Source: a virus. Taken from it: DNA of 45,123 bases. The stretch lies in the UHGV virus genome UHGV-1374414. One strand, written 5' to 3'. The position numbers were made by a program, and so were the translations under genes. Positions 1 through 45,123 of the stretch are shown here, piece by piece. Position 1 is the first letter of the stretch. Each line of letters opens with the position of its first letter. The notes below the pieces were generated by a model that was given only the letters and a program-made list of their open reading frames with translations, ran no database searches and was not told the origin of the DNA.

Positions 1-2153
1 AGCACGCCGCGCTCGACCATATCGTCGATTGCCTTCGTCGATGTGCCGCCTTTCGCAAGTCCAGCCTGGCGGACAATTGCCGATTTACTGAATCCGGTAT
101 GGTCCGGGTTATCTTCCATCAGTTTTTCCAGCGCCGCATAAAGCACTTTCTCTTTTTCGTTGCGCGGTCCTGCGGCGTTCTCCTCCTTAACTGCGGCTTT
201 GCCAGCGGCCTTCGCCTGTTCGATGGCGAACGGTGCCAGGGCGACCGGTACGAGGTAAAGAGTCTCGTCGCGTGGCGTGGATGCGATCGGCTTGACGTCC
301 CAACCGGCAACGACGTCACCGAAGTCTGGCCCGGTGCTGGTGGACTGGTGTGCTTCGAACGCTTCGGACTTGCGGAGATCAACCTTAACCTTGCACTTGA
401 GCAGGACGAAGCCGCGCGGCGCTTGCTTGATGCCGTTACGTGATTTTTCGTGATACAGGTTGAGTTGACCTGGCTGGTTGTCGTCCGGCTGTTCCAGGAA
501 GAACGCAGAATCGACAGCACCATGAAGCGCGCCGGACCCGCGTGGCGTTCTGCTGCCGTTTGCACCTTTCGCCGGGTGGTGGATGACGCCCGCACTGCCA
601 CCTGTATTTTCCGCAATGGCCTTCAGCGCCTTGACCACTTCGCCCATATCGCTGGCGTTGTTCTCGTCGAACGGTTTAGCATCGGCGGACCGCAACGCTA
701 CAGTCTGGTTGAGTGAGTCGAACGCCACCAGGCCAACCGGTTCGCCGTTAGCGGTGCGGTTGATGAAGCTGATAACTTCACGCAGTCCTGATTTGCTGGT
801 GATATCCCAGCCGCGTGATTGCAGATCGATAATGTGCAGCTTGTCCAGGTCGTGCTCGTATTTAATCTGCAATGCTTCCTTACGCTGGTTGGAGGCTTCA
901 CCACCTTCCGCGTCGAAATAGAAACAATGAGACTGGACGACCTTCGCACCGCCGAACGGAATACCCGCGGCAACCGCGCCCATTTGCCCCAGCACGTAGA
1001 ACGATTTGCCGATGTTAGACTCGCCAGCCATATACCAGGTCGATTTGAAGTTAATCAGCCCTTCGATGATCGGGTCGTGCTTACTGAACAGTGCGACCGG
1101 TTCGTTATCCAGGTCAGCGTCGGTACATACGCCGTACTCGTCGCCGTCTCCGACCGCATCAACAATATGATCATATAGGGACTCGACTTCCTCGTCGTCC
1201 AGTCCGGGGAGGATGGCGGCGATTTGCTTGCGTGACATGTTGTGCGGTTCGACGTTCAGGTGGTCCGGGATCCCGATAAGACGCAGCGCCAGGTGCTGGT
1301 GTCTGTTCAGTTCCGAGCAACACTCGTTGCCGGTGTGCATACACTTGAAACGGATCTCGCCATCCTTAACCATGATAGCCGTCGACCCTTCACCACTGTG
1401 CAGGTGTTCGTTCGGGCACGGCACTTCATAACCACGACCGGACGACAGCGGTTCGAATCCTGCCTGGAAGCACCAATCCAGAATGCCGTCCGCCACGCCG
1501 TCATCGCCCTGGGTCAGTTCGCGGCGTACTTCCTCTTTTTCCACTCCCAGCTTATCAGCCAGGCGAAGCAGACGACGGACGCGGGCACGTTTGCCGTAGT
1601 GACACTTAACAACCGATTGCTGGTGAGGCAGGTACATAAGGCGGTTTGTGTCTTTTGTACAATCATCGAAGTCCACATCTGACAGGCCCAGTTGGTGTAA
1701 TAGTGCATACTGGACGCGGCCCAGGTCTTCAGCCGGTACAGGCTTGTCAGTGAGCACCAGGAAACGGGCGCAACGCGTGCCGCCCTTCAGCGGGTGGCGG
1801 TCGCCGGTGGTGGTGTGAAATACGTGTTCCAGACCCGCGTCAATGAACGCCTTACGGCAGCGGCGCAGGGTGCGGGTGTCGGTGCGGTCAATATCAAAGA
1901 ACAGGATCGAGCGGTCCACCGCACTGGTCTTACGACGCAATCCGTCACTGGTATACGCCACGATGCCATCGGCCTTACGCTTGCGGCGCGCATACTCGGC
2001 TTTATCTTCCGTCTTGTTGATATGCACCGAGGAGATTTCTTTCGCATCTTTGATAAATTCGAAAAACTCATCGGTCGTCATCTGGAAGTTTTCCGCCCTG
2101 GCTTTTTCGCCTTTTTTAGCGGGTTTTGTTACAGCGAATTTAATCAAGCTCAT
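1..2153 (-). CDS. replicative primase/helicase (primase-polymerase-like N-terminal domain + P-loop helicase); 5' portion, ORF runs off left edge
   Basis: Stop-free minus-strand frame from ATG 2153-2151 (MSLIKFAVTKPAKK...) to position 1; absent from ORF track because no stop in window. Walker A GESNIGKS near 1002-1025; DxD-like ILFFDIDRTD and Cys/His cluster in N-terminal half. Confidence 0.75.
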   Translation of the reverse strand, partial: MSLIKFAVTKPAKKGEKARAENFQMTTDEFFEFIKDAKEISSVHINKTEDKAEYARRKRKADGIVAYTSDGLRRKTSAVDRSILFFDIDRTDTRTLRRCRKAFIDAGLEHVFHTTTGDRHPLKGGTRCARFLVLTDKPVPAEDLGRVQYALLHQLGLSDVDFDDCTKDTNRLMYLPHQQSVVKCHYGKRARVRRLLRLADKLGVEKEEVRRELTQGDDGVADGILDWCFQAGFEPLSSGRGYEVPCPNEHLHSGEGSTAIMVKDGEIRFKCMHTGNECCSELNRHQHLALRLIGIPDHLNVEPHNMSRKQIAAILPGLDDEEVESLYDHIVDAVGDGDEYGVCTDADLDNEPVALFSKHDPIIEGLINFKSTWYMAGESNIGKSFYVLGQMGAVAAGIPFGGAKVVQSHCFYFDAEGGEASNQRKEALQIKYEHDLDKLHIIDLQSRGWDITSKSGLREVISFINRTANGEPVGLVAFDSLNQTVALRSADAKPFDENNASDMGEVVKALKAIAENTGGSAGVIHHPAKGANGSRTPRGSGALHGAVDSAFFLEQPDDNQPGQLNLYHEKSRNGIKQAPRGFVLLKCKVKVDLRKSEAFEAHQSTSTGPDFGDVVAGWDVKPIASTPRDETLYLVPVALAPFAIEQAKAAGKAAVKEENAAGPRNEKEKVLYAALEKLMEDNPDHTGFSKSAIVRQAGLAKGGTSTKAIDDMVERGV

Positions 2154-2163: not shown

Positions 2164-2493
2164 TTACTTAGAAGTTTTATTATTGCGTACCCAGGAGCGC
2201 ACTGTGCTCTGATTAATTCCGGTCAACTCGGCAATCATCGCCCATGATTTACCCTCGGCGCGCAAACGGATAACCTGCTTTTTGTATTCTTCCATTTCTT
2301 CATTGTGTTTTTGCAGCTTGCTTGCTGCGGTACCGTTGAGTAGTTCCAGCCTGGCGCGCAATTCTTTTTCGGTAAGCCGTAGTCGTTCGATTTCGAATAA
2401 CACCGCCCCCACGGCATCTGTATAAGCCCATGACCGGCTTGTCTCACTGCAAACAGTCTTCGTTAACATTTCGATTGCGTCGTTTACATTCAT
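2164..2493 (-). CDS. helix-turn-helix DNA-binding protein (possible regulator)
   Basis: 109-aa ORF; C-terminal GKSWAMIAELTGINQSTVRSWVRN is a classic HTH; N-terminal coiled-coil; SD GAGGGA upstream; directly upstream of primase gene. Confidence 0.7.
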   Translation of the reverse strand: MNVNDAIEMLTKTVCSETSRSWAYTDAVGAVLFEIERLRLTEKELRARLELLNGTAASKLQKHNEEMEEYKKQVIRLRAEGKSWAMIAELTGINQSTVRSWVRNNKTSK

Positions 2494-12807: not shown

Positions 12808-12812
12808 ATTGG

Positions 12813-13819: not shown

Positions 13820-14024
13820 CCGCGACCCAGCGGTAGTAGACCAAATGCAAAAAGACTACGGTATTGACCCGCGACGCAATCGTGTGGTGCGCGCGTCTCG
13901 CCCCGAATACATCCAGGGCCTTGACCTCACCGGTTGGCTTGACATGACTCGGCGTTGCCATTTCGTGTGCAACTCCTTTACTGCGCGAAGCGCCCGTTAC
14001 ACCCTTATTGAGAGTTTAAAATGA
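13800..14024 (+). CDS. hypothetical protein
   Basis: ATG 13800; 74 aa; stop overlaps next ATG (ATGA). Confidence 0.45.
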   Translation: MNILIVDRDPAVVDQMQKDYGIDPRRNRVVRASRPEYIQGLDLTGWLDMTRRCHFVCNSFTARSARYTLIESLK

Positions 14025-14491: not shown

Positions 14492-14508
14492 GTTGGTTGC
14501 ACTATAGT
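14479..14508 (+). promoter_or_regulatory. sigma70-like promoter TTGCAA-18-TATAGT overlapping inverted repeat TGCAACCAA-tagg-TTGGTTGCA
   Basis: 9-bp inverted arms at 14480-14488 and 14493-14501; -10 TATAGT at 14503-14508; downstream gene at 14554. Confidence 0.45.
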
Positions 14509-14553
14509 TAACGCGTCGGGGCAATACAGCCCCTCACTTAAAAGGGTAATACT

Positions 14554-15048: not shown

Positions 15049-15089
15049 TTTAATCGCGGGCTTCGGCCCGCATCATCGAGGATCACACG

Positions 15090-27744: not shown

Positions 27745-27918
27745 TTATGCAGTCTCAGACGAGGGGGACCATTGACCCCCGTCTAGTCTGAAAGACTGGG
27801 GTTTGTCCCGCCTGTCCCGATCGGCTAAAAACCGCGGCAGCACTGGCTGGGGCGGGGTGCTGTCCCGCTTTGTCCCGCCCATTGTTTGTCCCGCTTTCTG
27901 TCCCGCTTACTTTATGCA
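27745..27918. repeat. composite repeat element copy 1: GC-rich hairpins followed by array of TGTCCCGC iterons, bounded by TTATGCA motifs
   Basis: Hairpin cagacgaggggg/cccccgtctag 27756-27786; six TGTCCCG(C) direct repeats (27794, 27803, 27861, 27871, 27886, 27898); about 85 percent identical to 44690-44873. Confidence 0.8.
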
Positions 27919-27929
27919 CGAAATCCGAA

Positions 27930-28062
27930 TAGGTATGCACATTTACAGGGCGGGACAAAACGGGACGTCCCGCTTGTCCCGTTTTGAGTTTATGCAGTGG
28001 AAGTGAGTAGGTATGCAGTTTTGCAGGTGCGGGACAAAACGGGACGTCCCGCTTGTCCCGCT
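27930..28062. repeat. two tandem ~80-bp units each containing a 33-bp palindromic core GCGGGACAAAACGGGACGTCCCGCTTGTCCCG
   Basis: Cores at 27949-27981 and 28028-28060 with perfect 12-bp palindrome CGGGACGTCCCG; each preceded by GTATGCA. Confidence 0.8.
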
Positions 28063-28742
28063 TCACTGTGCGGGGTTCTGCTGCGCCATCTCATCAAGCG
28101 CAATTCGTTCCATTAGCTTGATATCTTTAAACGCGCGCTGCTCGTTTTCGATACCGTGCATCTTAAATAACCACTCCAGCACGCCGTAGTCGATGCCGTA
28201 TGCGCCACCAAATCCGGTGCGCCATTGCGTTGAGCAATCTGTGAAGACTGCGACTACCTTCGCGTTGTCGGGCCATAGCGCAACAGGCGGACAAACATCT
28301 TCGGGGGCCGCGCCCCATAAACTTGCGGCTAAATCTTCGGAGGGTGGCGGCGGGCCATAAAAGCGTCGCGCCGCCTCAATTAGTTTTTTTCACGCAATCC
28401 CATCAGTTCGAGATAGTACGACGTGTGGAACACACCGAACGCGCGTGGGTAGTTGACCACCAGGCGGCGGACGTTCTCCGCGTTGAATTCGTCTGGCAGA
28501 TTCCAGCCTTCTGCGACGTGCATGATGGCCTCGACCATAACGTTAAAGCCGTCCGGGTCATTGTCGTCATATTCCGACAGCTTGCGTTCAGTGTCCTGCA
28601 TGGTCTGCGAAAATTCGTCGATCGGGCGGTGGCGTACGGTAAACGTCATTTTGCCGGGTTCGGTCTCACCAGGGCGCGGGATCTCAATCGGCAGCTTAAA
28701 GGTTGGTTTAGGGTCAAGTGTGAAGAGTGGTGCTTTAGCCAT
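28063..28742 (-). CDS. tail assembly chaperone G-T fusion made by programmed -1 ribosomal frameshift
   Basis: G frame ends at A7 run (mRNA G AAA AAA AC UAA); -1 frame then stays open about 105 codons to TGA at 28063-28065. Confidence 0.6.
28380..28742 (-). CDS. tail assembly chaperone (lambda G-like)
   Basis: ATG 28742 with GGAGA SD (ORF-track start 28757 is TTG); 120 aa; between major tail and tape measure genes. Confidence 0.7.
   Translation of the reverse strand: MAKAPLFTLDPKPTFKLPIEIPRPGETEPGKMTFTVRHRPIDEFSQTMQDTERKLSEYDDNDPDGFNVMVEAIMHVAEGWNLPDEFNAENVRRLVVNYPRAFGVFHTSYYLELMGLREKN
28383..28389 (-). other. -1 frameshift slippery heptamer A_AAA_AAC
   Basis: Seven consecutive A on minus strand (plus-strand T7 at 28384-28390) two codons before G stop. 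Confidence 0.55.
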
Positions 28743-30020: not shown

Positions 30021-30613
30021 TATTTCACCTTCGAATTAATTTCAGCCGCTACTACACGAACAATCCCCGCGGGCGCTTGTTTACTCCAGCCATACTCAAG
30101 TCGCTGCGCATACGGCACATTGTTAGTAAACCAGATCGACCCGTATTCACCGGAATCGTAATGCGCCAGCACTTCACGCCCTGCGGCTAATGTTGCCGCT
30201 CCGGCCTTGTCCACGCGGTCAATAGCGCCGACAGCCGGGCGGTCGAACGTAACCTGCCAGTTTCCCCGGAAGCGTCCGCCGGTGTAATTCTTCGCAGCCC
30301 AGCCACGCTGGCGGAACGTGACGTTGCCGTTTTTAGTTTTGAATGATACAAGCACACTGGCGTGCTTCTTCTGCCCACGCTTCAGTTTGCCGCCGTTCTT
30401 GCGGCGCTGTGCGGCGTTCGCCTTGTTCGCGTGTTCGCGTGCAAGCGCGTAAGCCCTGTTAATTTTCCACCGGCGGGGGTCGCCCACCGGGGAGATCTCA
30501 ATAAGGCGTCCGAGTATTTGCATACCGTACGCCCGCACCGCCTTGTCGTTGTTCTCCTTCGTCTTATCCACCCACGTAGCAATAGTGGCGGCGAATGAGT
30601 AGACTTCAGCCAC
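30020..30613 (-). CDS. head-tail connector / neck protein (position-based)
   Basis: 197 aa; GTG start with AAGGGG SD; stop overlaps next start. Confidence 0.45.
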   Translation of the reverse strand: MAEVYSFAATIATWVDKTKENNDKAVRAYGMQILGRLIEISPVGDPRRWKINRAYALAREHANKANAAQRRKNGGKLKRGQKKHASVLVSFKTKNGNVTFRQRGWAAKNYTGGRFRGNWQVTFDRPAVGAIDRVDKAGAATLAAGREVLAHYDSGEYGSIWFTNNVPYAQRLEYGWSKQAPAGIVRVVAAEINSKVK

Positions 30614-30614
30614 G

Positions 30615-30968
30615 TTAGCCCCTTAGCTGTAGTTGAAACAGCATGGTAGTGCCCGCCGGTTGCAGTGGGTTAGGGTTGACGACCCGGTAGTCAGTGCCGT
30701 CCAGGTTAACCAGGTCTCCCACCCGCAATTGCTCAACCGCCCGACATAAAAACTTCACATCACCGGCAACGATACGCGTTCCGTCGATCTCGCTAGGCTT
30801 GTACTCCTCGCGAAGACCGATGACGTCAAACGACGTTGGCGGGATTACCACTTCGTCGCCGTCTACGCGGTCAACCGATCCCGGACGCGCAACCGTAACG
30901 GTCATGCCGAATTTATTAATCAGCTTATTCACTTTCCGCTTTAATCCTGCGTAATTAAAGCCCGCCAT
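30615..30968 (-). CDS. head closure / head-tail adaptor protein (position-based)
   Basis: ATG 30968 with AGGAG SD (ORF-track start 30977 is GTG); 117 aa. Confidence 0.45.
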   Translation of the reverse strand: MAGFNYAGLKRKVNKLINKFGMTVTVARPGSVDRVDGDEVVIPPTSFDVIGLREEYKPSEIDGTRIVAGDVKFLCRAVEQLRVGDLVNLDGTDYRVVNPNPLQPAGTTMLFQLQLRG

Positions 30969-31072
30969 CTTCTTCACTCTCCTGTGCCGGTGGTACTGGT
31001 TCTGGCTCCGGTTGTTCTGGTTGCCGTTTAGTGTTGGCGGCGATTATCGCCGCGAGTAATGCAGGATTCATA

Positions 31073-31573
31073 TTACCCCCTGAATACGTCGAAATTTCCT
31101 GCGGCGTTGCCGCCTGAATCAACCCAGTGCCCTAACAAGCCATCCCACCACGGAAACGACACCCCGCTACCAATCGACGCCGGGTCGTATTCCATCGTGA
31201 TCGGGCCGACCGTTTCGCGGATAGTCTCTTTACCATCGCCGACCGGAGAAATATCGATCTCGTCCGCCACCAACAGCGCCAGCCGGTAAACAGCTTGCTC
31301 AACGGCAACGGGGATTGATGCAAAGTCTACGATTTTCCCGACAGGCACTACCGCCACGACTTCGGTTAGCGTGTCGCGCACCGGCTTCCCGTCCGATGGG
31401 TAGTTGATGCGGGGCCATGCGTCTATTCCTGTCTGGTCCGCCTGTTCGCCGATCCAGTTGATGCCGTTAAGGAAGTCATTAACGATGGTAAGGTGTCGCG
31501 TCGCATCGCCCAGCGTAATTTCAACGCCTCGCGCAGCGGCATAATCAACAAAGGTTTGCGGGTCGCCATACAT
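31073..31573 (-). CDS. head completion / head-tail joining protein (position-based)
   Basis: ATG 31573 with AGGAG SD; ORF-track start 31615 lies inside the terminator hairpin after the capsid gene. Confidence 0.5.
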   Translation of the reverse strand: MYGDPQTFVDYAAARGVEITLGDATRHLTIVNDFLNGINWIGEQADQTGIDAWPRINYPSDGKPVRDTLTEVVAVVPVGKIVDFASIPVAVEQAVYRLALLVADEIDISPVGDGKETIRETVGPITMEYDPASIGSGVSFPWWDGLLGHWVDSGGNAAGNFDVFRG

Positions 31574-31587
31574 CTTATTTGCTCCTA

Positions 31588-31612
31588 TAAAAAAGGCGGG
31601 CATAAGCCCGCC
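31588..31612 (-). terminator. intrinsic terminator after major capsid gene
   Basis: Minus strand: gggcgggc-ttat-gcccgcc hairpin followed by tttttta. Confidence 0.65.
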
Positions 31613-31631
31613 CATTTGGGATGTGCGTAGA

Positions 31632-32732
31632 TCAGGACGCTTTGGTCGCAGTCAGCGTAACCAGTACGCCCGCCGTTTCCTTGATGTGACGGGTCGGCAC
31701 TTCCTGTGCGGCCTGGGTCTTACGACGGCCTTTAGTATCGCCATCACCAACAGCGCCAACATCCTGAACGGTTGCCGGTGCGTTGTCTACCTGGCCCTGA
31801 TCCAGTTCCCAGTTAGCGGAAGTGGTGATATCGTCCAGTTTGAACGAGCGCACACCTTCGATCGGGGTACGAGCGGATGCCTTCAGACGATAGCCTTTAA
31901 CCGCCACGTTGAAGTCGAACTCGCCCTGCCACCAGCGTTCGATGTTCTCGTTACCGCCTTTTTCCTGCGCCAGCATATCGAGGCCGTTGGTGGTAACTGC
32001 AACCGCGCCAGGGACCAGACCCAGCATTGTACCTGCACCCATAGCATCGGCAGCGGCATCGGAGATAATGAAACGACGTCCCAGGCCATCGCCCATTACC
32101 TGGAGATCGCCAATTGCGAATACCTGTTCGGCAGAAGGGAGCGCCTGGTACGCAATGAAGTTTGCCCAGGTAACGCCGTCCATAAACCAGGACTTAATCA
32201 AAGACGCCTGATCGCCGAACTTAGAAGCCGCCAGCGGGAAGTCTGCCAGGGTCGGGAAGGTACGACCGCCAACGCCGTCAACGCGCGCCGGTTGGGTGTA
32301 TTTTGCCGCTGCGTTGCTTTCGATCGCCGCTTTACTTGCGCCGATACCCGCTTTCAGGTAATGCAGCATAATCGCTTGAGTAGCCTGTGCCGCGATCTCA
32401 GCCGCAACGCTGTTAACGTTGGTTTCGATCTTAGCCATCATGGCCTTCGTGATTGCTACCGGACCCACTTTCGCGGAAAGGTTAACCGAGTTGGTCAGCA
32501 TACGCGCCAGCACTTTTGCGGTCGCCGGAGTACCTACAGGGGCGTAGGCGTTACGGTCGGTAACGAGGTTGGCTATCAAGCCTACGGACATTTTTTCTAC
32601 AACATCCTTCAGCACTTCACCCGTACCGAGAACAACAGCGCCATTGGCGGCAGCGTTGAAAACGTTCAGGTTGTCGGGGATCATTTGCGTAACCGCGGTA
32701 ACGAGTTTACGCTGGAACACTGTTAAAGACAT
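31632..32732 (-). CDS. major capsid protein
   Basis: 366 aa; SD AAAGGA; follows scaffold gene and is followed by strong terminator; antisense ORF 31623-32726 rejected. Confidence 0.75.
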   Translation of the reverse strand: MSLTVFQRKLVTAVTQMIPDNLNVFNAAANGAVVLGTGEVLKDVVEKMSVGLIANLVTDRNAYAPVGTPATAKVLARMLTNSVNLSAKVGPVAITKAMMAKIETNVNSVAAEIAAQATQAIMLHYLKAGIGASKAAIESNAAAKYTQPARVDGVGGRTFPTLADFPLAASKFGDQASLIKSWFMDGVTWANFIAYQALPSAEQVFAIGDLQVMGDGLGRRFIISDAAADAMGAGTMLGLVPGAVAVTTNGLDMLAQEKGGNENIERWWQGEFDFNVAVKGYRLKASARTPIEGVRSFKLDDITTSANWELDQGQVDNAPATVQDVGAVGDGDTKGRRKTQAAQEVPTRHIKETAGVLVTLTATKAS

Positions 32733-32798
32733 ATCGAAATCCTTTGAGTTGTGAGCATTCGCCCAGTGACGTTAATGTTACCTTAGATTTACGCGCTC

Positions 32799-32824
32799 GC
32801 AAAATTGCCCGCTTTCGCGGGCAA
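32799..32824 (-). terminator. hairpin + T-run attenuator between scaffold and capsid genes
   Basis: Minus strand: ttgcccgc-gaaa-gcgggcaa hairpin followed by tttt. Confidence 0.45.
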
Positions 32825-32829
32825 TCTGC

Positions 32830-33534
32830 TTACTCGTCGTCGCCCATCTTAGCGATGATTTCACCCGCCTGTTTCGTAAGGTCAGTGATACCGAAGCTGT
32901 GGCCCATAGTGATTTTCGACTTCACATCTTCGACAACCTGCGTCGGTTTGCTAGGCGCGCCACCGGCTGGCGTGCCGGCCAGGACGGATGCAAAATCGGC
33001 GTTATTACGGAACTCTTTTTCAAGCTCTTCCATAGTCAGCGCGGACGGTTTGCCATCCTGCAAGACACGCACTTTCAAGCTGCCGTCTTCGCCGTCTTCC
33101 AGCGTCAGGCGGTCCATTACGTGGCGTTGCATGATGCCCGCATTCTTACCGAACAGCTTCGACGCCAGGTCTTTGGCAGCGCTGCCGATGGTTAGATCGT
33201 GGATCTGCTTGCGGTAGGCTTCGATTTTTCCCGATGTGTCTGCTTCGTGTTTCGCAAACTTATCCTTCCAGGACTTATCGATCGCTTCGAGGTCGCCATT
33301 TTTGCGCGCGGCGGCTTCCTCTTTCTCTTTCGCAAGGCGCTCAGCTTCGGCGCGGCGTTCGGCTTCTGCCTTCTTCTCGCTCACCAGCTTCGCGTTGTTG
33401 TCTTTCAGACCCTTGATTTCCGCCTGTACTTCTTCTGCGGTCATGAACGTTGATTTATACCCATCGCCATCGGCAACAAAAAGCGCCTTCATACCTTCCG
33501 GCAACGCGTCATATTCTGCTTTAGTAAGTTTCAT
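32830..33534 (-). CDS. capsid scaffolding protein
   Basis: ATG 33534 with GGGGGA SD; 234 aa, charged coiled-coil KAEAERRAEAERLAKEKEEAAARK; immediately upstream of capsid gene. Confidence 0.65.
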   Translation of the reverse strand: MKLTKAEYDALPEGMKALFVADGDGYKSTFMTAEEVQAEIKGLKDNNAKLVSEKKAEAERRAEAERLAKEKEEAAARKNGDLEAIDKSWKDKFAKHEADTSGKIEAYRKQIHDLTIGSAAKDLASKLFGKNAGIMQRHVMDRLTLEDGEDGSLKVRVLQDGKPSALTMEELEKEFRNNADFASVLAGTPAGGAPSKPTQVVEDVKSKITMGHSFGITDLTKQAGEIIAKMGDDE

Positions 33535-33624: not shown

Positions 33625-33653
33625 TTGCAATCCGCGTATTGGTTGCATATATT
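33625..33653 (+). promoter_or_regulatory. sigma70-like promoter TTGCAA-17-TATATT with tandem ATTGGTTGCA motifs
   Basis: Motif copies at 33638-33648 and 33651-33661; 25-nt stretch 33650-33674 identical to minus-strand 44510-44486. Confidence 0.5.
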
Positions 33654-33681
33654 GGTTGCACACCAACATGAGGATATGACA

Positions 33682-34194
33682 ATGATTAAAGTTAACTATG
33701 CCGATCTTAAAGCCGCTATGATGTGCGCCGCAACTAATGACGTGCGGTACTATCTGAATGGTGTATTTTTCGACGAGAAAGGATTCATCGTGGCCACCGA
33801 CGGTCATCGTTTGTTCTGCGGGTCCGCGGTTGTTCCCGGAGGTGAAAGTAAAATAGTAGCAATTAAAGGCCGCTTACCTACAAAATTCGAATACTGCAAC
33901 ATAGACGGCACATCCGCTGCGTTCTTTGATAGTAAAGACGTATTAATCGGTACCATACCCGTAGAGATCATAGACGGCAGATTCCCAGACTGGCGTCGTG
34001 TTACGTCTTTCGACAGCGCTAAAGTGGAGGCTATAGGGTTTGCCGGGGTATACCTGTCCGACGCCTGCAAAATTGCTAAATTGTTCGACCGTAAGTTTGA
34101 TAGCTTAAAACTGGAATTTCAGGGAGTAGACAAGGCGACACGTGTGCTGTTCAAAGGCGGTGCCTTCCTTGTTATCATGCCGATGCGTTTGTAG
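33682..34194 (+). CDS. truncated beta sliding clamp (DnaN)-like protein
   Basis: 170 aa; SD GAGGA 7 nt upstream; NDVRYYLNG, VATDGHRL, DGRFPDWRRV and C-terminal VIMPMRL match remembered E. coli DnaN domain II/III (QDVRYYLNG, ATDGHRLA, DGRFPDYRRV, VVMPMRL). Confidence 0.75.
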   Translation: MIKVNYADLKAAMMCAATNDVRYYLNGVFFDEKGFIVATDGHRLFCGSAVVPGGESKIVAIKGRLPTKFEYCNIDGTSAAFFDSKDVLIGTIPVEIIDGRFPDWRRVTSFDSAKVEAIGFAGVYLSDACKIAKLFDRKFDSLKLEFQGVDKATRVLFKGGAFLVIMPMRL

Positions 34195-37265: not shown

Positions 37266-38651
37266 TTAGTAGAAGTCTACAGTTGGAACAACGGCGACAG
37301 GACGAATCACTGGGAACAGGTGCGCAATTGGATAGCCAGCGGCATCGTTCATGTGGTCCACACCGGCGGTTTTATCCGGCTCGCCTTTCTTCAGGTCGTA
37401 AACCTGCTGTTCCAGACATTTCGCTAGTGTAGGGCATTTATCCAGGTTGACAAAATACTGGCGCACGCCCTTCGAGTTGCACATCATCGTATTCATCGCG
37501 ATCAATCGGTCTTTCACAGGTGGGTTAACACTGTCATACTCCACCTCGAAGCCCGCGTCTTCCAGTTGCGCTATATCGGACGATGATGCGTTGACAGTCT
37601 TGCGAGACTTGCCGCTGCTATCCGGGTAAACGACAACACGACCGGCAGCACAATGATCGGGGTAGCGCTCCTCGATCGCCTCAATCATAGCCGGGGTATC
37701 GAACAGGTCCACGAATTCATCCACTGCGTGAATCTCGTCGCGGAACTCCTTGTTTTCGGTGATGCGCTGCCGTCTGACGTACACGACCGCCGCCATTTTC
37801 GTGACGTTAAAGTCCATACCGATAATCAGCGTGTCTTCCGGCTGCACTTCTTCGGTGCTGGCGTTATCCTCACGATTGAACATCTTGTATACCGCGCCCG
37901 ACGTAAGGTTGACAAACATACCGTTCAGGTACGCATCAATCAGGTTAGCCGGGTACTGGCTGCGCAGAGTGTCGATAAAGTCAGCCGGTAAGTGGTGATT
38001 ATCGGTAGTCTTCGCCCGGATCAAACGTTTCTGGCTATCCTTCTCCACTTCGAAAATCTGGTACATCGCCCGGAAGCCTTCAGGCGTGGATACGATGACG
38101 AACTGGCGTACCAAGCCAGCACGCAGACGACCAAGCAATTTGTGATATGCCGCCATCGCGACGTCTTGCTTCGTGGTGTCGAACTCGTCGGCAACAATCC
38201 ATGCGGCGTTAACCCCGATAAGGCGGGTGTAGTTTTCCATTGACTCGCAGATTACGCGGGTCCATTTGCCTTTCACCAGAACGCTGTAGATCTTGTCCTG
38301 CTTATTGAACTTCCACCGGAAGCCCGCCTCGTCAAACGCCTTTTCCAATTCTGGATACATGATTTTAACCAGAAGTGGAATAGTCGGTTCTGTAACGATG
38401 CCATCATGACCAGGGTTCAGGGTTAAAAGCTGGATGACCTTTCGCGCCGCGACCCATGACTTGCCACCACCGAAGCCGGAGCACAGGCCGAGGATTTTAG
38501 TCTTCGTGTCGCGCAGTAGCTCCACCTGGTGAGGAAGGCAATCAGGCTGGTAAAGGCGGACGGCCTGTGCAACGCGTGTCGGGCGCGGCGGTCTGTTTCG
38601 CTTTGCGATCGCGCGTTCAAGGGCGCGATGTTCTGCCGCATAGTTACGCAT
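37266..38651 (-). CDS. terL: terminase large subunit
   Basis: 461 aa; Walker A GFGGGKS, Walker B WIVADEFD; start overlaps small subunit stop (TAATG). Confidence 0.85.
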   Translation of the reverse strand: MRNYAAEHRALERAIAKRNRPPRPTRVAQAVRLYQPDCLPHQVELLRDTKTKILGLCSGFGGGKSWVAARKVIQLLTLNPGHDGIVTEPTIPLLVKIMYPELEKAFDEAGFRWKFNKQDKIYSVLVKGKWTRVICESMENYTRLIGVNAAWIVADEFDTTKQDVAMAAYHKLLGRLRAGLVRQFVIVSTPEGFRAMYQIFEVEKDSQKRLIRAKTTDNHHLPADFIDTLRSQYPANLIDAYLNGMFVNLTSGAVYKMFNREDNASTEEVQPEDTLIIGMDFNVTKMAAVVYVRRQRITENKEFRDEIHAVDEFVDLFDTPAMIEAIEERYPDHCAAGRVVVYPDSSGKSRKTVNASSSDIAQLEDAGFEVEYDSVNPPVKDRLIAMNTMMCNSKGVRQYFVNLDKCPTLAKCLEQQVYDLKKGEPDKTAGVDHMNDAAGYPIAHLFPVIRPVAVVPTVDFY

Positions 38652-39202
38652 TACTCACCCTGACCTTTGCCAGTAGGCTCCACAACGACGTCGCCGTTAT
38701 CATCTTCGTCGTCATCCAGCGGTACATCGTCCCGGACGCCGTGGTTGGCTTTAAGCAGGAAGGTAGCGAAGCCCGCCGCGATGGTCACGCCGCCAGCTTC
38801 CATCAGGAACGTTTTCTGCAACTCCATAGCGTCCGCCATCGCCTCGGCGAACTCCTCATGTGCGCGCGCCCAGCGGTACAGGCAGGCGACGCCTACACCA
38901 ATATCTGCGGCAAAGCGACCTAGAGTCGGCATCTTGTTGCGAGGGATTACCTGCGCAGCACCTTTGTCGGAGTAGTTGATTTGCCAGGCTACGGCATCGG
39001 CGAAATAGCGGCGAAGCTGGTCACAATACACGGTACGGTAGTCGGTAGGACGTCCACATTTGCCGCCTCTACGGCGCTTGCCGTATTCGATCTCCGGCCC
39101 GAGATTGGTGTGTTCTGTTTGCTCGCCTGGTTTACGGCGCGGGGTAACTGCTACTCGTCCGTCCAGTTTAGCGCGACGGCCTTTAACTTTAATTTCTGCC
39201 AT
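38651..39202 (-). CDS. putative terminase small subunit
   Basis: ATG 39202 with AAAGGG SD; basic N-terminus, acidic C-terminus; translationally coupled to terL. Confidence 0.5.
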   Translation of the reverse strand: MAEIKVKGRRAKLDGRVAVTPRRKPGEQTEHTNLGPEIEYGKRRRGGKCGRPTDYRTVYCDQLRRYFADAVAWQINYSDKGAAQVIPRNKMPTLGRFAADIGVGVACLYRWARAHEEFAEAMADAMELQKTFLMEAGGVTIAAGFATFLLKANHGVRDDVPLDDDEDDNGDVVVEPTGKGQGE

Positions 39203-39282
39203 GATATAAGCCCTTTTGTGCATATGCGCCGACCATCGGCAACATAGGAGACGGCCCTGCCATCTAAGGGGATTATAACAGG

Positions 39283-39531: not shown

Positions 39532-40670
39532 TTCAACATTTCCGGGCTAATGGTTAAGCGCGCTACTTCGCCGTAGTTGGCGCTGTAGGTGATTACGTTG
39601 GCACTGCGTCCGGACATCCAACCGCCGCGGCTGGCATATGCGTCTTTCGCTGCGAGGGTCCGGTGCTGTTCAACAATCATGTTGCGGGATTCAACAATCT
39701 TCTGGTGGTGCAAGTGGCCTACATGCGCGTAGCTGTACTCGCTGGCCCCGAAAGCCTGTCTGAATTTAGAAATCATAACGGTTTCGATGGCATCGAAGCG
39801 CGCTTTGTGCCCGTGGTGGAAGAACAGCGTGGTCTTGCCGTGCTGCACCATTTTGTACACGTCCGGGGACGTGTCCACATCGACACGAGGCTCGTTCTCG
39901 TACAGCGTATTGAACATTTCAGCCAGCCAAATCATACCAGACTCGTCATGATTCCCCTGGACGATTAGCAGTTTGACTTTGTGGTGTTTTTGCAGCGCCA
40001 GCTCCACCACGTTGCGCACCATGCGAATCATGTATCGTACCAGCTTCTGGTAGCGGGTATCTGCGTCCAGTACGTGACCGCTGGCAGGAGTGACGGCATC
40101 GAGGCTATCAAAGTGGGCCATATCACCGAGGATATTAATCACGGCAGTGCCTGCGTCCGGTGCGCGTGCGAAGGCTTCGACAAACCAGCGGTAGAACAGG
40201 TCTTCGGCAATCGCCATATCCCAGTCTTCGCCCGTCTCTTCGCCCCAGGCCAACATGCCCAGGTGGAAGTCGGACACGGTGTACAGGTTGAGTAGGTCAA
40301 GTGCCTGGATCGGGACTGGTGGGGCGCTTACTGGTGCTGCCGGTTTTATTTCGCTGTTCATACCCTCGACAACAGCGCGCATGGCTTCAAGCTGGCGCTC
40401 CTTGTCCTGCTCAGTGATAACCCACGACATGACTTCTTCGCCATTGCCGCGCACCAGGGCGGATACGCGCTTAACACCGAAGCCATCGGCAACGCGCTTA
40501 CGGATTACGGCATCGTTACCGTGACCAATACCTTTCTTCGACAGGCGGGCTTTGCGCATGTAGACATTTCGGAGGGAAAGACCGTACCTCTTAGCAATAT
40601 CTTTCGAGGTAGTGCCGGATTGCAACTCGGCGATCAATTGCTCGTCGGTGATTTTAGTTTGCGGGTGCAT
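39528..40670 (-). CDS. calcineurin-like metallophosphoesterase with N-terminal HTH domain
   Basis: 380 aa; N-terminal TSKDIAKRYGLSLRNVYMRKARL (HTH); phosphoesterase motifs SDFHLG, GDMAHFD, GNHDE, HHGH, GHLHH. Confidence 0.7.
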   Translation of the reverse strand: MHPQTKITDEQLIAELQSGTTSKDIAKRYGLSLRNVYMRKARLSKKGIGHGNDAVIRKRVADGFGVKRVSALVRGNGEEVMSWVITEQDKERQLEAMRAVVEGMNSEIKPAAPVSAPPVPIQALDLLNLYTVSDFHLGMLAWGEETGEDWDMAIAEDLFYRWFVEAFARAPDAGTAVINILGDMAHFDSLDAVTPASGHVLDADTRYQKLVRYMIRMVRNVVELALQKHHKVKLLIVQGNHDESGMIWLAEMFNTLYENEPRVDVDTSPDVYKMVQHGKTTLFFHHGHKARFDAIETVMISKFRQAFGASEYSYAHVGHLHHQKIVESRNMIVEQHRTLAAKDAYASRGGWMSGRSANVITYSANYGEVARLTISPEMLK

Positions 40671-41128: not shown

Positions 41129-41539
41129 TCCTGCGGCTCCCGTTACGGTGAAGATGGCGGACGCCATCGCCCCGCCCCCATCGGATGCCACCCAGAAGAT
41201 GTGGACGCCACCCTCCGTTCTTGCTGTGATTTCGCCGGTAGCCTGATTGATTTCCGCGCATTCTGGGTTTGCAGACACCCACTTCCCTACCTTGTTAGTT
41301 GCGTCGGATGGCAGGACGGCAACAGAAGCGGCGGCTTTCGCCCCAACTGCGGCTGACACTGGGGTGATGGTTATGGTCGCACTTGCCACTGGCTTACTTT
41401 CCGGCGGGCTAGGTAACTTCGCGTCGAAGACCCCAGCGCGGCTGATCGTATCCGCTACAATAGCGCGTGCGCCTGGGTCTTCGATTTTAGCCAGCGCAGC
41501 AAGCGCGTCGGCGTTATGATCAAGAATACTTTTTAACAT
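41126..41539 (-). CDS. bacterial Ig-like (Big_2-type) domain protein
   Basis: 137 aa; ITPVSAAVGAKAAASVAVLPSDATNKVGKWVSANPECAEINQATGEI resembles Big_2 fold. Confidence 0.55.
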   Translation of the reverse strand: MLKSILDHNADALAALAKIEDPGARAIVADTISRAGVFDAKLPSPPESKPVASATITITPVSAAVGAKAAASVAVLPSDATNKVGKWVSANPECAEINQATGEITARTEGGVHIFWVASDGGGAMASAIFTVTGAAG

Positions 41540-41555
41540 ACTGTGTTACCCCGTA

Positions 41556-42047
41556 TTATGCTGCGTTACGTCCGATTCTCTCGGCAACGTCCCACTGCTT
41601 ACCATCGAATAGCGCTTGCCTGCCGATTGCTCGACGGACCAGACCCTTGAGCACTTCCCCGCCTTGCTTGCGGAACTGCGGCAGAGTAGCACGGACCTTC
41701 GCCCAGTCACCCAGTCGCACTGCATCATCGAAGTCATTAGCGATATGGTCCGGTACGATCGGACCCTGACCTGCATTGATTACCAGATCCACCAGCGCGT
41801 CGAATTGCGCCTGGTTAATGCTCGGATGTGCGTATTTGTTCACCCAATCTTCCGCATACGCCACGTCACGCTTGAGTAGTTCCAGCGCTTCCGCGCGGGT
41901 AATGCTTCGAGGCGGGTTAGTGCCGGTGTGTCCATAACCCCAGGTGTACAGGCCGCGGGCCTGCTCTTTCTTAGTCGCGAAATACGGCACTGGGCTAAAA
42001 GCCTCCCATGCTGCCGTGAATCGCAGACCGTTGTCACTGAATCGCAT
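41556..42047 (-). CDS. endolysin (phage lysozyme, GH24-like)
   Basis: 163 aa; N-terminal ...EAFSPVPYFATKKEQARGLYTWGYGHT resembles T4-lysozyme catalytic region; preceded by two small membrane proteins. Confidence 0.7.
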   Translation of the reverse strand: MRFSDNGLRFTAAWEAFSPVPYFATKKEQARGLYTWGYGHTGTNPPRSITRAEALELLKRDVAYAEDWVNKYAHPSINQAQFDALVDLVINAGQGPIVPDHIANDFDDAVRLGDWAKVRATLPQFRKQGGEVLKGLVRRAIGRQALFDGKQWDVAERIGRNAA

Positions 42048-44477: not shown

Positions 44478-44505
44478 TGTTCAGTCCTCATGTTGGTGTG
44501 CAACC

Positions 44506-44534
44506 AATATAGCAGGGTGCCAGGGCGGATGCAA
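44506..44534 (-). promoter_or_regulatory. sigma70-like promoter TTGCAT-17-TATATT (minus strand) from two ATATTGGTTGCA repeats
   Basis: Minus-strand -35 = plus 44529-44534, -10 = plus 44506-44511. Confidence 0.5.
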
Positions 44535-44611
44535 CCAATATTAATCACGCGCATGAAAAAGTTGATCGCTATCTGCTGTGACTGCAAACTGCGTTTTTCA
44601 CTCCGCATAAT

Positions 44612-44630
44612 GCAACCTGCATTGGTTGCC
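44612..44630. promoter_or_regulatory. inverted repeat GCAACC-tgcatt-GGTTGC (motif-derived operator-like site)
   Basis: Perfect 6-bp arms; overlaps ATTGGTTGCC at 44621-44630. Confidence 0.35.
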
Positions 44631-44689: not shown

Positions 44690-44873
44690 TTATTCAGTCT
44701 CAGACGAGGGGGGCCACTGACCCCCGTCTAGTCTGAAAGACTGGGGTGCTGTCCCGCTGTCCCGCTCCTCTGGAAGCCGCGCCATCCGGGGCGGGACTGG
44801 GGTGCTGTCCCGCTTTGTCCCGCCCCTTGTTTGTCCCGCTTTTTGTCCCGCTTACTTTATGCAATAAAACTGC
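44690..44873. repeat. composite repeat element copy 2 (hairpins + TGTCCCGC iteron array), near primase gene 3' end
   Basis: About 85 percent identical to 27745-27918 in same orientation; five to six TGTCCCGC iterons; AT-rich tract follows. Confidence 0.8.
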
Positions 44874-44900
44874 ATAACTATTCACTATATCTACACTACA

Positions 44901-45002
44901 CGGCAACCAATGCGACCAGCTAAAAACACTCAATCCGGCAACCAATGCTCGCACAAATTAATCGTTTAGCGATATGGGGATTCCCATATCGGCAACCAAT
45001 GC
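44901..45002. repeat. three direct repeats of CGGCAACCAATGC plus a 20-bp palindrome
   Basis: Repeats at 44901-44913, 44936-44948, 44990-45002; palindrome GATATGGGGATTCCCATATC at 44971-44990. Confidence 0.7.
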
Positions 45003-45014
45003 GCGCAGAATTTA

Positions 45015-45123
45015 ATCTTTTAAATCATCATCGGTCGCCGAAAGCGTGATGGGTATATTCGTTTTAATGACGATATTCGACGACCCATAGATGGCCCCGG
45101 TATGCGGATCGGTATAAAAACCG
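45015..45123 (-). CDS. 3' end of the same primase/helicase gene if the sequence is circular (stop TAA at 45012-45014)
   Basis: Minus-strand frame open from right edge to TAA. The 2 leftover nt at positions 2-1 plus 1 nt at 45123 make an in-frame CTC codon, giving ...DMVERGV-L-GFYTDPHTGAIYGSSNIVIK...DDDLKD*. Confidence 0.55.

What the first reader, a model, noticed from the sequence alone, without database searches (positions are those of the whole stretch)
44690..44873. Second copy of the iteron/hairpin element next to the primase gene end and the main control region
This ~184-bp copy is about 85 percent identical to 27745-27918 and in the same orientation, about 17 kb away. It sits between the 3' end of the primase/helicase gene (if circular) and the promoter of the first minus-strand small gene, followed by an AT-rich tract. 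Iterons plus an AT-rich region next to replication genes is the classic origin architecture, so this copy is the stronger ori candidate. Two direct copies also bracket the lysis-packaging-head-tail segment and could support recombination.
Basis: partly seen in the sequence, partly recalled or inferred. Interest (0 to 1): 0.75.

Follow-up and report, generated by a model that had tools for sequence, protein, structure and literature searches.

The report
Paired iteron-type replication origin element
This non-coding element next to a coliphage's primase-helicase gene looks like a replication origin built from short protein-binding repeats, a hairpin and an AT-rich patch, and related phages keep a matched second copy inside their late genes, as the model phage SPP1 does.

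Summary
Window 44690-44885 and 27745-27940 form the only long dispersed non-coding direct repeat (about 82-84% identical, 16,945 bp apart). The window is a Dhillonvirus genome, and both loci are conserved in 159 GenBank phages; the Sodalis phage SO-1 record already labels them "region A" and "region B".

Copy B (the finding) starts about 110 bp after the stop of a minus-strand primase/helicase (RepA-like AAA_25 core). It has three ATTGGTTGC promoter/operator sites, a 67-73% AT patch with a conserved box, seven GTCCCGC repeats and a conserved 49-nt hairpin.

An origin reading is well supported by comparison:
- GTCCCGC arrays in unrelated viral contigs lie inside lambda-O-like initiator genes or at the 3' end of AAA_25 helicase genes (26 of 35, against 5 of 51 controls).
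- Close relatives keep the box and hairpin but use four different repeats.
- In the one variant-repeat lineage where both loci could be read (type 2), both carry the new repeat, and LM40P1's two copies co-vary (10:1:1).
- Eiauvirus and a Klebsiella phage also have two loci with their own repeats.

The closest known parallel is SPP1 oriL/oriR. Origin activity and the binding protein remain untested. I rate it a new variant of a known kind, of moderate interest.

The parts
44695..44743 (.). Conserved imperfect hairpin module (CAGTCTCAGACGAGGGGGG..CCCCCGTCTAGTCTGAAAGACTG) at the promoter-distal end of copy B
   Evidence: Folds as ssDNA at -13.4 to -14.1 kcal/mol, z -3.1 to -3.5 on either strand. 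The stem is invariant and the loop variable in 14 genomes at both loci. Divergent versions, including eiAU, still fold. RNAalifold finds no covariation signal.
44751..44765 (+). Two adjacent GTCCCGC repeats (44751-44757, 44759-44765)
44766..44806 (.). GC-rich spacer (23-30% AT) holding one inverted repeat copy (GCGGGAC, 44791-44797)
   Evidence: In lineages with other repeat types this spacer is replaced by a TGATTTATAAGGA-containing segment.
44807..44851 (+). Four phased GTCCCGC repeats (starts 44807, 44817, 44833, 44845; spacing 10, 16, 12 bp)
   Evidence: Identical spacing in copy A (27862, 27872, 27888, 27900). This block carries the A/B lineage-specific co-variation.
44852..44899 (.). AT-rich tract (67-73% AT) with the TTATGCA/TGCATAA inverted repeat (44857-44877) and the box GTGAATAGTTATGCAG on the minus strand (44870-44885); candidate unwinding element
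   Evidence: RTAGKTATGCA occurs 3 times in the window, only at the two loci (0.09 expected). The same box is in St162, in the relatives with other repeat types and in the AT-rich core of the O-like origins.
44903..45000 (-). Three tandem ATTGGTTGC sites (+ strand GCAACCAAT at 44903, 44938, 44992) pointing into the element; promoter/operator-type sites
   Evidence: The site at 44903-44911 has a -10-like AATAGT at 18 bp, lying inside the box.
45012..45123 (-). 3' end of the primase/helicase gene (stop codon 45012-45014); the gene continues at window 1-2153
1..2153 (-). 5' part of the primase/helicase gene (754 aa): AAA_25 RepA-like core at 357-531, confident N-terminal alpha/beta domain, C-terminal winged-helix-like tail at 662-740
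   Evidence: best structural fit RSF1010 RepA, TM 0.59-0.63, rmsd 4.0-4.6 A
2164..2493 (-). 109-aa HTH protein (HTH_23 / sigma-70 region-4-like), co-transcribed upstream of the primase/helicase. Its HTH half is invariant across repeat types, so it is not the repeat reader
44499..44630 (-). Downstream control region: TTGCAT-17-TATATT promoter overlapped by two ATTGGTTGC sites (44500, 44531) and an inverted GCAACC..GGTTGC pair (44612-44630), ahead of the first small gene (44477-44187)
27750..27798 (.). Copy A hairpin module, just upstream of the tape-measure gene start (27679)
27805..27906 (+). Copy A repeat block (six GTCCCG cores) with a GC-rich spacer
27911..28066 (.). Copy A extension absent from B: two tandem 78-79-bp modules, each made of TTTATGCA, the box (ATAGGTATGCA at 27929, GTAGGTATGCA at 28007, inverted relative to B) and a palindromic GCGGGACAAAACGGGACGTCCCGCTTGTCCCG unit

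Best explanation
Copy B is the initiator-binding part of a phage replication origin placed directly 3' of the primase/helicase gene. A phage-encoded, lineage-specific DNA-binding function binds the phased GTCCCGC repeats. My favoured candidate is the winged-helix-like C-terminal tail of the primase/helicase itself. Binding would load the RepA-like helicase at the adjoining AT-rich box and hairpin, where the strands open and the enzyme's own primase domain starts synthesis. Transcription from the three ATTGGTTGC promoter-like sites that point into the element may assist opening. Copy A, in the tail operon, is a second site read by the same factor. It acts either as a second origin or, as proposed for SPP1 oriR, as a bound roadblock or partner site that helps switch replication to concatemer synthesis. 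Shown here: the anatomy, its conservation, the association of this repeat with replication initiators, repeat-type switching, and co-switching of the two loci. Inferred: protein binding, the identity of the binder, the unwinding site, origin firing, and the role of copy A.
For: Position and anatomy: the phased repeats, GC-rich spacer, 67-73% AT tract and hairpin begin about 110 bp after the primase/helicase stop. Conservation: both loci are present in 159 phages, A-A identity 0.89 and B-B identity 0.90, with an invariant hairpin stem. Association across unrelated phages: in IMG/VR contigs, 15 of 35 GTCCCGC arrays with non-coding spacing lie in or abut a gene matching PHROG 'replication initiation O-like / DnaD-like loader', followed by a Toprim+AAA_25/DnaB_C helicase. 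A further 10 lie within about 0-300 bp of the 3' end of AAA_25 helicase genes with Prim-Pol, Toprim/Zn-ribbon or no primase domain, and 1 has a helicase within 3 kb. That totals 26 of 35, against 5 of 51 arrays with coding-type spacing. Specificity switching: homologues 67-70% identical keep the ATTGGTTGC sites, and the box and hairpin wherever the contig reaches them, but carry GCGGGACA, GTGTGGCA, GTGTGCCA or GGTGCCA. More distant relatives carry TTGCGAGT, GGGGGAGA or CGCCCCG at the same place. Coupling of the two loci: one 27.6-kb type-2 contig begins in its tape-measure-side copy and ends in its helicase-side copy with the same 27 nt, and both carry GTGGCA repeats. LM40P1 against the window gives 10:1:1 informative sites for A/B co-variation. 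Klebsiella VLCpiS11a, the L166 lineage and Edwardsiella eiAU each have two loci sharing their own motifs. Candidate binder: the tail at 662-740 is predicted with H-(b)-H-H-b-b topology at pLDDT 70-87 and is the fastest-evolving part of the protein. Precedents: SPP1 oriL/oriR (PMC6316719) and the pRN1 stem-loop origin 3' of its primase-helicase-winged-helix gene (PMC4234260).
Against: No functional data exist, and I found no paper on a Dhillonvirus origin. The binder is not identified. Tail identity does not track repeat type cleanly: the window and P0013 share a repeat but are only 0.58 identical in the tail, like pairs with different repeats. Profile comparisons of the tail with the tails of other GTCCCGC-associated helicases and with the O-like DNA-binding domain are not significant (probabilities below 5%). 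It is unexplained why unrelated proteins would share one 7-bp repeat. The IMG/VR survey was seeded with the motif itself, contains near-duplicate contigs, and leaves 9 of 35 arrays unassigned (one lies beside an integrase). The cumulative GC-skew minimum at the window end fits an origin here, but it coincides with the switch in gene orientation and so is confounded. Hairpin covariation is essentially nil.
Confidence: 0.68

Rival explanations
1. The repeats bind the replication protein, but this copy is not where replication starts. It would act as a regulatory or mechanical site: titration or handcuffing of the initiator, autoregulation of the primase/helicase operon from its 3' end, or a fork barrier. 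The true start site would be copy A or somewhere else.
For: Copy A has twice as many repeat cores (14 against 7) and has arrays on both sides of its boxes, like the O-like origins. In SPP1, one of two similar sites is proposed to act as a fork barrier rather than as the working origin (PMC6316719).
Against: The helicase-side position is the most widely conserved one. It is kept in St162, where no second copy was found, and in at least 10 unrelated contigs. Only B has the AT-rich tract fed by promoter-like sites.
Confidence: 0.12
2. It is a transcription control module at the early/late boundary. The hairpin would act as a terminator or attenuator, or as an antitermination RNA (nut/put-like, two copies on the sense strand of a 29-kb operon). 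The repeats would be binding sites for a transcription regulator.
For: Both copies lie on the transcribed strand inside a long co-directional gene block. Three promoter-like sites point into B. One GenBank record carries a software-predicted terminator inside the element.
Against: No intrinsic-terminator pattern occurs on the sense strand, and there is no U-tract after the hairpin. There are no Rfam matches and no covariation. The same repeats occur inside initiator coding regions, on the antisense strand, in other phages, which does not fit an RNA element. The only nearby HTH regulator is invariant while the repeats switch.
Confidence: 0.1
3. It is a packaging signal (a pac or cos accessory site bound by small terminase).
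For: Short direct repeats are typical of terminase recognition sites. In one unrelated contig (L041) the arrays lie just upstream of a gene resembling small terminase.
Against: B lies about 5.5 kb from the terminase genes (38651-39223). Packaging in this genus is reported as headful, and records are oriented by terminase convention (PMC9022532). Alternatively a cos sequence, ATCTTAAGGG, is reported (PMC10673088); it has no exact match in the window, and its only 1-mismatch match lies far from both loci. The repeat's genomic associations are with replication genes.
Confidence: 0.03
4. It is a selfish or neutral duplicated sequence (a MITE-like insertion or a remnant duplication) with no function beyond providing homology for recombination.
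For: It is a dispersed direct repeat with signs of concerted evolution.
Against: Both loci are kept in all 159 genomes, with a hairpin more conserved than the flanking genes. The two-locus design recurs in other genera with unrelated repeat sequences, and at a different second position in VLCpiS11a. No additional copies and no target-site duplications were seen.
Confidence: 0.03

Closest known systems
Bacillus phage SPP1 oriL / oriR (origin-binding protein gp38)
   Same: Two origin regions of similar design (direct repeats plus an AT-rich unwinding element) lie about 13 kb apart on a roughly 44-kb siphophage genome. One lies in the replication genes; the other sits in a non-coding segment that interrupts the conserved order of the virion-assembly genes. 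Both are bound by one initiator, and the late-region copy is proposed to stall forks and trigger the theta-to-concatemer switch (PMC6316719). Here the copies are 16.9 kb apart, B lies beside the replication genes, and A interrupts the tail chaperone / tape-measure junction.
   Different: In SPP1, oriL lies inside the initiator gene, and a separate initiator, loader and DnaB-type helicase are used. Here the site is non-coding, 3' of a fused primase/RepA-like helicase, carries a conserved hairpin, and no separate initiator is recognisable. Binding of one protein to both sites is inferred only from co-switching of the repeats.
Lambda-type origin embedded in the O initiator gene
   Same: Phased short repeats next to an AT-rich core. 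The very same GTCCCGC repeat and an ATAGTTATG-type box are used by O-like/DnaD-like initiator genes in many IMG/VR contigs.
   Different: In the window the arrays are non-coding, and no O-like protein is detectable.
pRN1-type origin (stem-loop directly downstream of the ORF904 primase-helicase-winged-helix gene), also noted in some phages
   Same: An essential stem-loop origin lies just 3' of the gene for a multifunctional primase/helicase with a C-terminal winged-helix domain. The published model has the protein first binding downstream of its own gene (PMC4234260).
   Different: ORF904 has an SF3 helicase and a Prim-Pol domain, and its roughly 100-nt stem-loop lacks iterons. Here the helicase is RepA/AAA_25-type, the hairpin is about 49 nt, and it is accompanied by repeats.
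IncQ plasmid RSF1010 oriV (from my own knowledge: iterons, a GC-rich stretch, an AT-rich stretch and ssiA/ssiB hairpins; RepA helicase, RepB' primase, RepC iteron binder)
   Same: The order of parts is similar (repeats, GC-rich spacer, AT-rich tract, hairpin). The helicase core's best structural match is RSF1010 RepA.
   Different: No RepC-like initiator was found. Primase and helicase are fused. There is one hairpin per copy rather than two on opposite strands. The sequence match to RepA is not significant (E = 0.54).
Satellite phage P4 ori / crr (from my own knowledge: the alpha primase-helicase binds type I iterons at ori and at the distant cis-required crr)
   Same: Two separated sites carry the same short repeats, presumably read by a C-terminal DNA-binding domain of a fused primase-helicase.
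   Different: P4 alpha is an SF3 (D5-type) helicase and the sites are 4.5 kb apart. I found no source for this in the searchable library, so the comparison rests on recall.

Membership tests
Iteron-type (initiator-bound) replication origin | Cluster of at least 3 short phased repeats at roughly helical spacing | tested here: met
   Seven GTCCCGC cores at B (the block of four is spaced 10, 16 and 12 bp) and 14 at A. Enrichment: 22 observed against 9.6 expected.
Iteron-type (initiator-bound) replication origin | Adjacent AT-rich unwinding region | tested here: met
   Windows starting at 44840-44870 are 67-73% AT, against 45% for the genome.
Iteron-type (initiator-bound) replication origin | Linked in cis to the replication initiator or helicase gene | tested here: met
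   The element begins about 110 bp after the primase/helicase stop. The same geometry is seen in relatives and in at least 10 unrelated contigs.
Iteron-type (initiator-bound) replication origin | Repeat sequence is lineage-specific and changes along with a DNA-binding determinant | tested here: inconclusive
   Four repeat types occur among proteins 67-70% identical, and the tail is the most variable region. The tail/type association holds for two of three same-type pairs only.
Iteron-type (initiator-bound) replication origin | Initiation of DNA synthesis at the site and specific protein binding | not testable with these tools
   Needs ori-cloning, marker-frequency analysis or 2D gels, and EMSA or footprinting.
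SPP1-type dual origin (oriL/oriR) | Two distant loci of similar design, one in the replication genes and one interrupting the late-gene order | tested here: met
   compared with PMC6316719.
SPP1-type dual origin (oriL/oriR) | Both loci bound by the same initiator | not testable with these tools
   Indirect support only: the two loci co-switch repeat type and co-vary.
SPP1-type dual origin (oriL/oriR) | gp38-family initiator with a separate loader and DnaB-type helicase | not tested
   No gp38 comparison was run. The window's replication gene is a fused primase/RepA-like helicase.
Lambda-type origin inside the O gene | Repeats embedded in the initiator coding sequence | tested here: not met
   The arrays are intergenic in the window, and an O-like profile finds nothing there. 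The feature is met in the unrelated class-2 contigs.
pRN1-type stem-loop origin | Conserved stem-loop just 3' of a primase-helicase-winged-helix gene | tested here: met
   A 49-nt hairpin, z about -3, retained in divergent lineages. Tail topology is H-(b)-H-H-b-b.
pRN1-type stem-loop origin | SF3 helicase plus Prim-Pol replication protein | tested here: not met
   Pfam finds only AAA_25, and the best structural match is RSF1010 RepA.
Intrinsic (rho-independent) terminator | GC-rich hairpin followed by a U/T run on the transcribed strand | tested here: not met
   No hit at B. The only hit at A is on the antisense strand and is within chance expectation.
Any curated RNA family (Rfam 15) | Match at gathering score | tested here: not met
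   No matches in the whole window.

The most novel reading that the evidence does not exclude
The two loci form an obligatory start-and-partner pair read by a rapidly diversifying specificity determinant. One site fires, and the other, bound by the same protein inside the late operon, arrests or re-routes forks to switch the phage to concatemer synthesis. Frequent switching of repeat type at both loci together (at least four types among near relatives) would create replicon 'incompatibility groups'. These would stop co-infecting relatives from using each other's replication proteins. The same GTCCCGC code is shared with O-like initiators and with several primase-helicase architectures in unrelated phages, which would imply an exchangeable origin-specificity module.
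Probability: 0.25. Interest if true: 0.7.

Novelty: new variant of a known kind. Interest (0 to 1): 0.55.

Why it matters
Dhillonviruses are common, easily grown coliphages that are used in the BASEL collection and in biocontrol work, yet I found no described origin for them. A defined origin, together with a natural series of four or more interchangeable repeat types, would give a simple system for studying how a fused primase-helicase finds its start site and how origin specificity evolves. It would also allow a test of whether a second, late-region origin copy is a general device for switching replication mode, an idea so far based mainly on SPP1. There are practical consequences too: the pair of repeats breaks short-read assemblies at predictable points, and it defines cis elements that engineered or minimised phage genomes must keep.

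Tried and rejected
- A sigma-70 promoter and intrinsic-terminator scan of both loci found nothing useful.
- An Rfam scan of the whole window found no hits.
- Literature searches for a Dhillonvirus origin and for the repeat sequence found nothing relevant.
- The SO-1 record's note on regions A and B is truncated in the tool output, so the depositors' own suggestion could not be read.
- An HMM of the O-like DNA-binding domain against the window and relatives gave no hit.
- hhalign among the three candidate binding domains was not significant.
- A protein search with the C-terminal tail alone gave 2 hits, both uninformative. One was a Dhillonvirus gene split by an assembly gap.
The full-length model's PDB search was dominated by the RecA-fold core, so the winged-helix call rests on topology only.
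- An IMG/VR scan for type-2 arrays returned 78 unrelated loci.
- GenBank searches for variant-repeat isolates found none.
- A metagenome scan for 'type-2 repeat plus hairpin' found none.
- The NC_015391 accession guess failed, and a chaperone-based search did not reach the Edwardsiella phages. eiAU was finally reached through its tape-measure protein.
- My prediction that P0012 and P0015 would carry GCGGGACA was wrong; they carry GGTGCCA.
- The pac/cos, terminator, RNA-element and mobile-element readings were considered and rejected for the reasons given under the rival explanations.

Full report
**What the window is.** The 45,123-bp window is a complete, circularly permuted genome of a Dhillonvirus (an HK578/SO-1-like virulent coliphage). 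The region of the finding matches 159 GenBank phage records at 76-99% identity. Gene order follows annotated relatives. A minus-strand HTH gene (2164-2493) and the primase/helicase gene (2153..1, continuing 45123..45012) are followed on the same strand by small genes, then lysis, terminase, head and tail genes, down to 15694. Early replication genes run on the plus strand from 2893 to 15665.

**Checking the observation.** The two copies are real. They align at 83% column identity with flanks and 0.839 over the shared module. As a 196-nt ungapped pair (27745-27940 and 44690-44885; 82% identical; 16,945 bp apart; same orientation) they are the only long non-coding dispersed repeat in the window. 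GTCCCGC occurs 22 times against 9.6 expected, and 17 of these lie in the two loci.

- Copy B lies between the primase/helicase stop (45012-45014) and the control region of the first small minus-strand gene. A 67-73% AT tract adjoins the repeats.
- Copy A fills an unusual 390-bp gap between the tail chaperone genes and the tape-measure gene. It has twice as many repeat cores, because of two extra 78-79-bp modules.
- The pair was noticed before. The Sodalis phage SO-1 GenBank record annotates "region A" and "region B" as repeat regions with mutual similarity. I found no paper that analyses them.

**Anatomy of copy B, read in the direction of transcription (minus strand).**
1. Three ATTGGTTGC sites.
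2. An AT-rich tract containing a TTATGCA/TGCATAA inverted repeat and the box GTGAATAGTTATGCAG.
3. Four phased GCGGGACA repeats.
4. A GC-rich spacer with one inverted repeat copy.
5. Two more repeats.
6. A 49-nt imperfect hairpin.

The hairpin folds at -12 to -14 kcal/mol as single-stranded DNA (z -3.1 to -3.5) on either strand in both copies. In 14 genomes its stem is invariant at both loci while its loop varies.

ATTGGTTGC is a genome-wide motif: 16 copies where about 0.3 are expected (my estimate from motif length and genome size). Seven of the 16 have a -10-like hexamer at 16-18 bp, against 8% of random positions. Others overlap the -10/+1 region, so the motif behaves as a promoter-associated operator.

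**Simple alternatives fail.** There is no intrinsic terminator on the sense strand and no sigma-70 consensus hit, and no Rfam family matches. The published packaging predictions for the genus are headful (PMC9022532) or a cos site, ATCTTAAGGG (PMC10673088). That sequence has no exact match in the window, and its only 1-mismatch match is far from both loci.

**The neighbouring proteins.**
- The primase/helicase (754 aa) has a Pfam AAA_25 core. Its best structural fit is the RSF1010 RepA helicase (TM 0.59-0.63, rmsd 4.0-4.6 A).
- It has a confidently modelled N-terminal alpha/beta domain.
- Its C-terminal tail (662-740) is predicted with winged-helix topology at pLDDT 70-87.
- The upstream gene, annotated "resolvase" or "transposase" in databases, encodes only a small protein with an HTH resembling sigma-70 region 4.

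**The repeat in unrelated phages.** Two IMG/VR scans for GTCCCGC arrays returned Dhillonvirus copies and many unrelated contigs (GC 41-73%). After arrays with coding-type periods (9 or 12) were set aside as an internal control, the 35 remaining arrays fell as follows:

| Context | Arrays (of 35) |
|---|---|
| In or abutting a roughly 250-300-aa ORF with an N-terminal wHTH | 15 |
| Within about 0-300 bp of the 3' end of an AAA_25 helicase gene | 10 |
| Helicase within 3 kb | 1 |
| Neither | 9 |

- The 250-300-aa ORFs match PHROG families "replication initiation O-like" and "DnaD-like helicase loader". They are followed by a Toprim+AAA_25/DnaB_C helicase, which is the lambda layout of an origin inside the initiator gene.
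- The helicase genes with a 3' array carry Prim-Pol, Toprim/Zn-ribbon or no primase domain.
- In total 26 of 35 arrays sit in a replication context, against 5 of 51 control arrays.
- In the O-like class the arrays flank an AT-rich core whose ATAGTTATG part matches the window's box. RTAGKTATGCA occurs three times in the window, only at the two loci, against 0.09 expected.
- Caveats: the survey was seeded with the motif, includes near-duplicate contigs, and leaves 9 arrays unassigned.

**Repeat switching.** Relatives with the same primase/helicase all keep a 290-900-bp non-coding gap right after the gene, but the repeat differs:

| Lineage (helicase identity to the window) | Repeat after the helicase gene |
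|---|---|
| Klebsiella phage VLCpiS11a (48%) | TTGCGAGT |
| Salmonella phage St162 (43%) | GGGGGAGA |
| Edwardsiella phage eiAU | CGCCCCG |
| Window, L164 (type 1; 68%) | GCGGGACA |
| L165, L168 (type 2; 68-70%) | GTGTGGCA |
| L169 (type 3; 69%) | GTGTGCCA |
| L170, L171 (type 4; 67-68%) | GGTGCCA |

Types 1-4 come from metagenomic homologues only 67-70% identical to the window protein. All of them keep the ATTGGTTGC sites. The box is present in six of the seven loci (not evident in L169), and the hairpin is present wherever the contig extends far enough. This is how origin repeats behave when they co-evolve with an initiator's specificity. The HTH half of the upstream protein is nearly invariant across all four types, so it is not the repeat reader. 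Its constancy matches the constant ATTGGTTGC sites instead.

The primase/helicase tail is the fastest-evolving part of that protein (0.48-0.60 identity between types, against 0.68-0.79 elsewhere). Two same-type pairs show raised tail identity (0.82 and 0.67). The window and P0013, which share a repeat, do not (0.58), so the tail-as-reader idea is only suggestive. Profile comparisons between the tail, the tails of other GTCCCGC-associated helicases and the O-like DNA-binding domain are not significant.

**Coupling of the two loci.** Among close genomes, A and B evolve as orthologues: identity is 0.756 within a genome and 0.745 between genomes. At greater distance they co-vary.
- The window against LM40P1 gives 10 informative sites where the two copies of one genome agree against the other genome. 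One site supports orthology and one supports the remaining pattern. All 10 lie in the repeat block.
- A 27,589-bp type-2 contig starts 215 bp upstream of its tape-measure gene and ends 110 bp after its helicase stop. The same 27 nt are at both ends, and the tape-measure-side copy carries GTGGCA repeats plus the hairpin. Both loci therefore switched repeat type together.
- VLCpiS11a has a second copy of its own roughly 300-bp TTGCGAGT element, in the same orientation, between the head-morphogenesis and spanin genes.
- The L166 lineage shares GGGATC..GATCC and GCTGCCAAC motifs between its two loci.
- eiAU shares a 52-nt CGCCCCG-containing block (88% identical) and GCAACCAAC sites between its two loci, and has a homologous hairpin before its tape-measure gene.
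- No second copy was found in St162 or SonjaBuckley.
- Divergent hairpins still fold (z -2.5 to -4.0), but formal covariation is nil.

**Interpretation.** The best-supported reading is that B is the initiator-binding, unwinding and priming region of the phage origin, placed 3' of the primase/helicase gene. A would be a second site read by the same lineage-specific factor. [quoted passage not shown] One lies in the replication genes and one interrupts the assembly-gene order. Both are bound by gp38, and the late copy is proposed to stall forks and trigger concatemer synthesis (PMC6316719). pRN1 is an experimentally supported case of a stem-loop origin just downstream of a primase-helicase-winged-helix gene (PMC4234260). 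The part order also recalls IncQ oriV, and the two-site logic recalls P4 ori/crr; both of those comparisons rest on my own knowledge.

Membership in any of these families fails on protein type. The window has no gp38 or O-like initiator, no SF3 helicase and no RepC, so this is a new variant of the iteron-origin kind rather than a member of a named system. Origin firing, protein binding and the role of copy A are inferences.

**Verdict.** Confidence in an origin function for this copy is about 0.68. It is a new variant of a known kind, and interest is moderate (0.55).

Noticed in passing
window 2682, 9866, 12808, 12825, 14481, 17534, 22998, 33638, 33651, 43981, 44500, 44531, 44621, 44903, 44938, 44992: The 9-mer ATTGGTTGC/GCAACCAAT occurs 16 times (about 0.3 expected from motif length and genome size). 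It often supplies a TTGC -35 element 17 bp from a good -10 (TATATT, TATAGT), or overlaps the -10/+1 region as a second copy. It is conserved in all relatives examined, as TTGGTTGC in the Klebsiella phage and eiAU. The co-transcribed 109-aa protein, whose HTH resembles sigma-70 region 4, is equally invariant, which makes the two a plausible regulator/operator pair.
   Followed up: partly
window 2164-2493 (-): This gene is annotated 'resolvase' or 'transposase' in GenBank relatives and in PHROGs, but it has only a C-terminal HTH (HTH_23 / Sigma70_r4_2) and no catalytic domain. The database name is probably wrong. Its N-terminal 45 residues are hypervariable between lineages.
   Followed up: partly
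window 33638-33690 (+) and 44480-44540 (-): Nearly the same promoter/5' leader (ATATTGGTTGCACACCAACATGAGGA...ATG) precedes two different genes. One is a plus-strand gene embedded in the minus-strand head module (start about 33682); the other is the first small minus-strand gene (44477).
   Followed up: no
window 3009-3300 and 6206-6412: Two early proteins carry related tandem acidic (Asp/Glu-rich) and Lys-rich coding repeats: the 173-aa ORF at 2893-3414 and the gp2.5-like SSB at 5637-6440.
   Followed up: no
L168 5390-5410, L169, L170, L171, L166 about 7860, L253 (eiAU) both loci: A conserved TGATTTATAAGGA-type motif sits between the repeat groups in the type 2-4 lineages, in the L166 lineage and in eiAU. 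In the window's type-1 element it is replaced by a GC-rich spacer. It could be a host-factor site.
   Followed up: no
L165 end / L250 start (contig logan ERR11172925_9173); L253 record start: Short-read assemblies break exactly at the A/B repeat. One contig runs from copy A to copy B with identical 27-nt ends, and the eiAU GenBank record starts inside its region A. This is a predictable assembly hazard for these phages.
   Followed up: partly
GenBank MG065648 (Campylobacter phage A144), OQ221563 (Acinetobacter phage NJ01): Records named for Campylobacter and Acinetobacter hosts are near-identical Dhillonvirus genomes. This probably reflects contamination or host mislabelling.
   Followed up: no
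L041 5471-5838; L090 2537-2775: Two GTCCCGC arrays lie in non-replication contexts. In L041, convergent arrays flank an AT-rich stretch just upstream of a terminase-small-subunit-like gene. In L090, the array abuts a phage integrase gene.
   Followed up: partly
L007 (St162) 41141-41652 and 21762-21943; L006 (VLCpiS11a) 1-127 = 39665-39791: St162 has perfect tandem duplications of 256 bp and 91 bp, and the VLCpiS11a record has a 127-bp end overlap. These are likely assembly or circularisation artefacts in the public records.
   Followed up: no
L005 (SO-1) 30312-33500: The SO-1 DNA polymerase gene is annotated as interrupted by a group I intron carrying an HNH endonuclease. The window's polymerase gene (6666-8957) is uninterrupted.
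   Followed up: no
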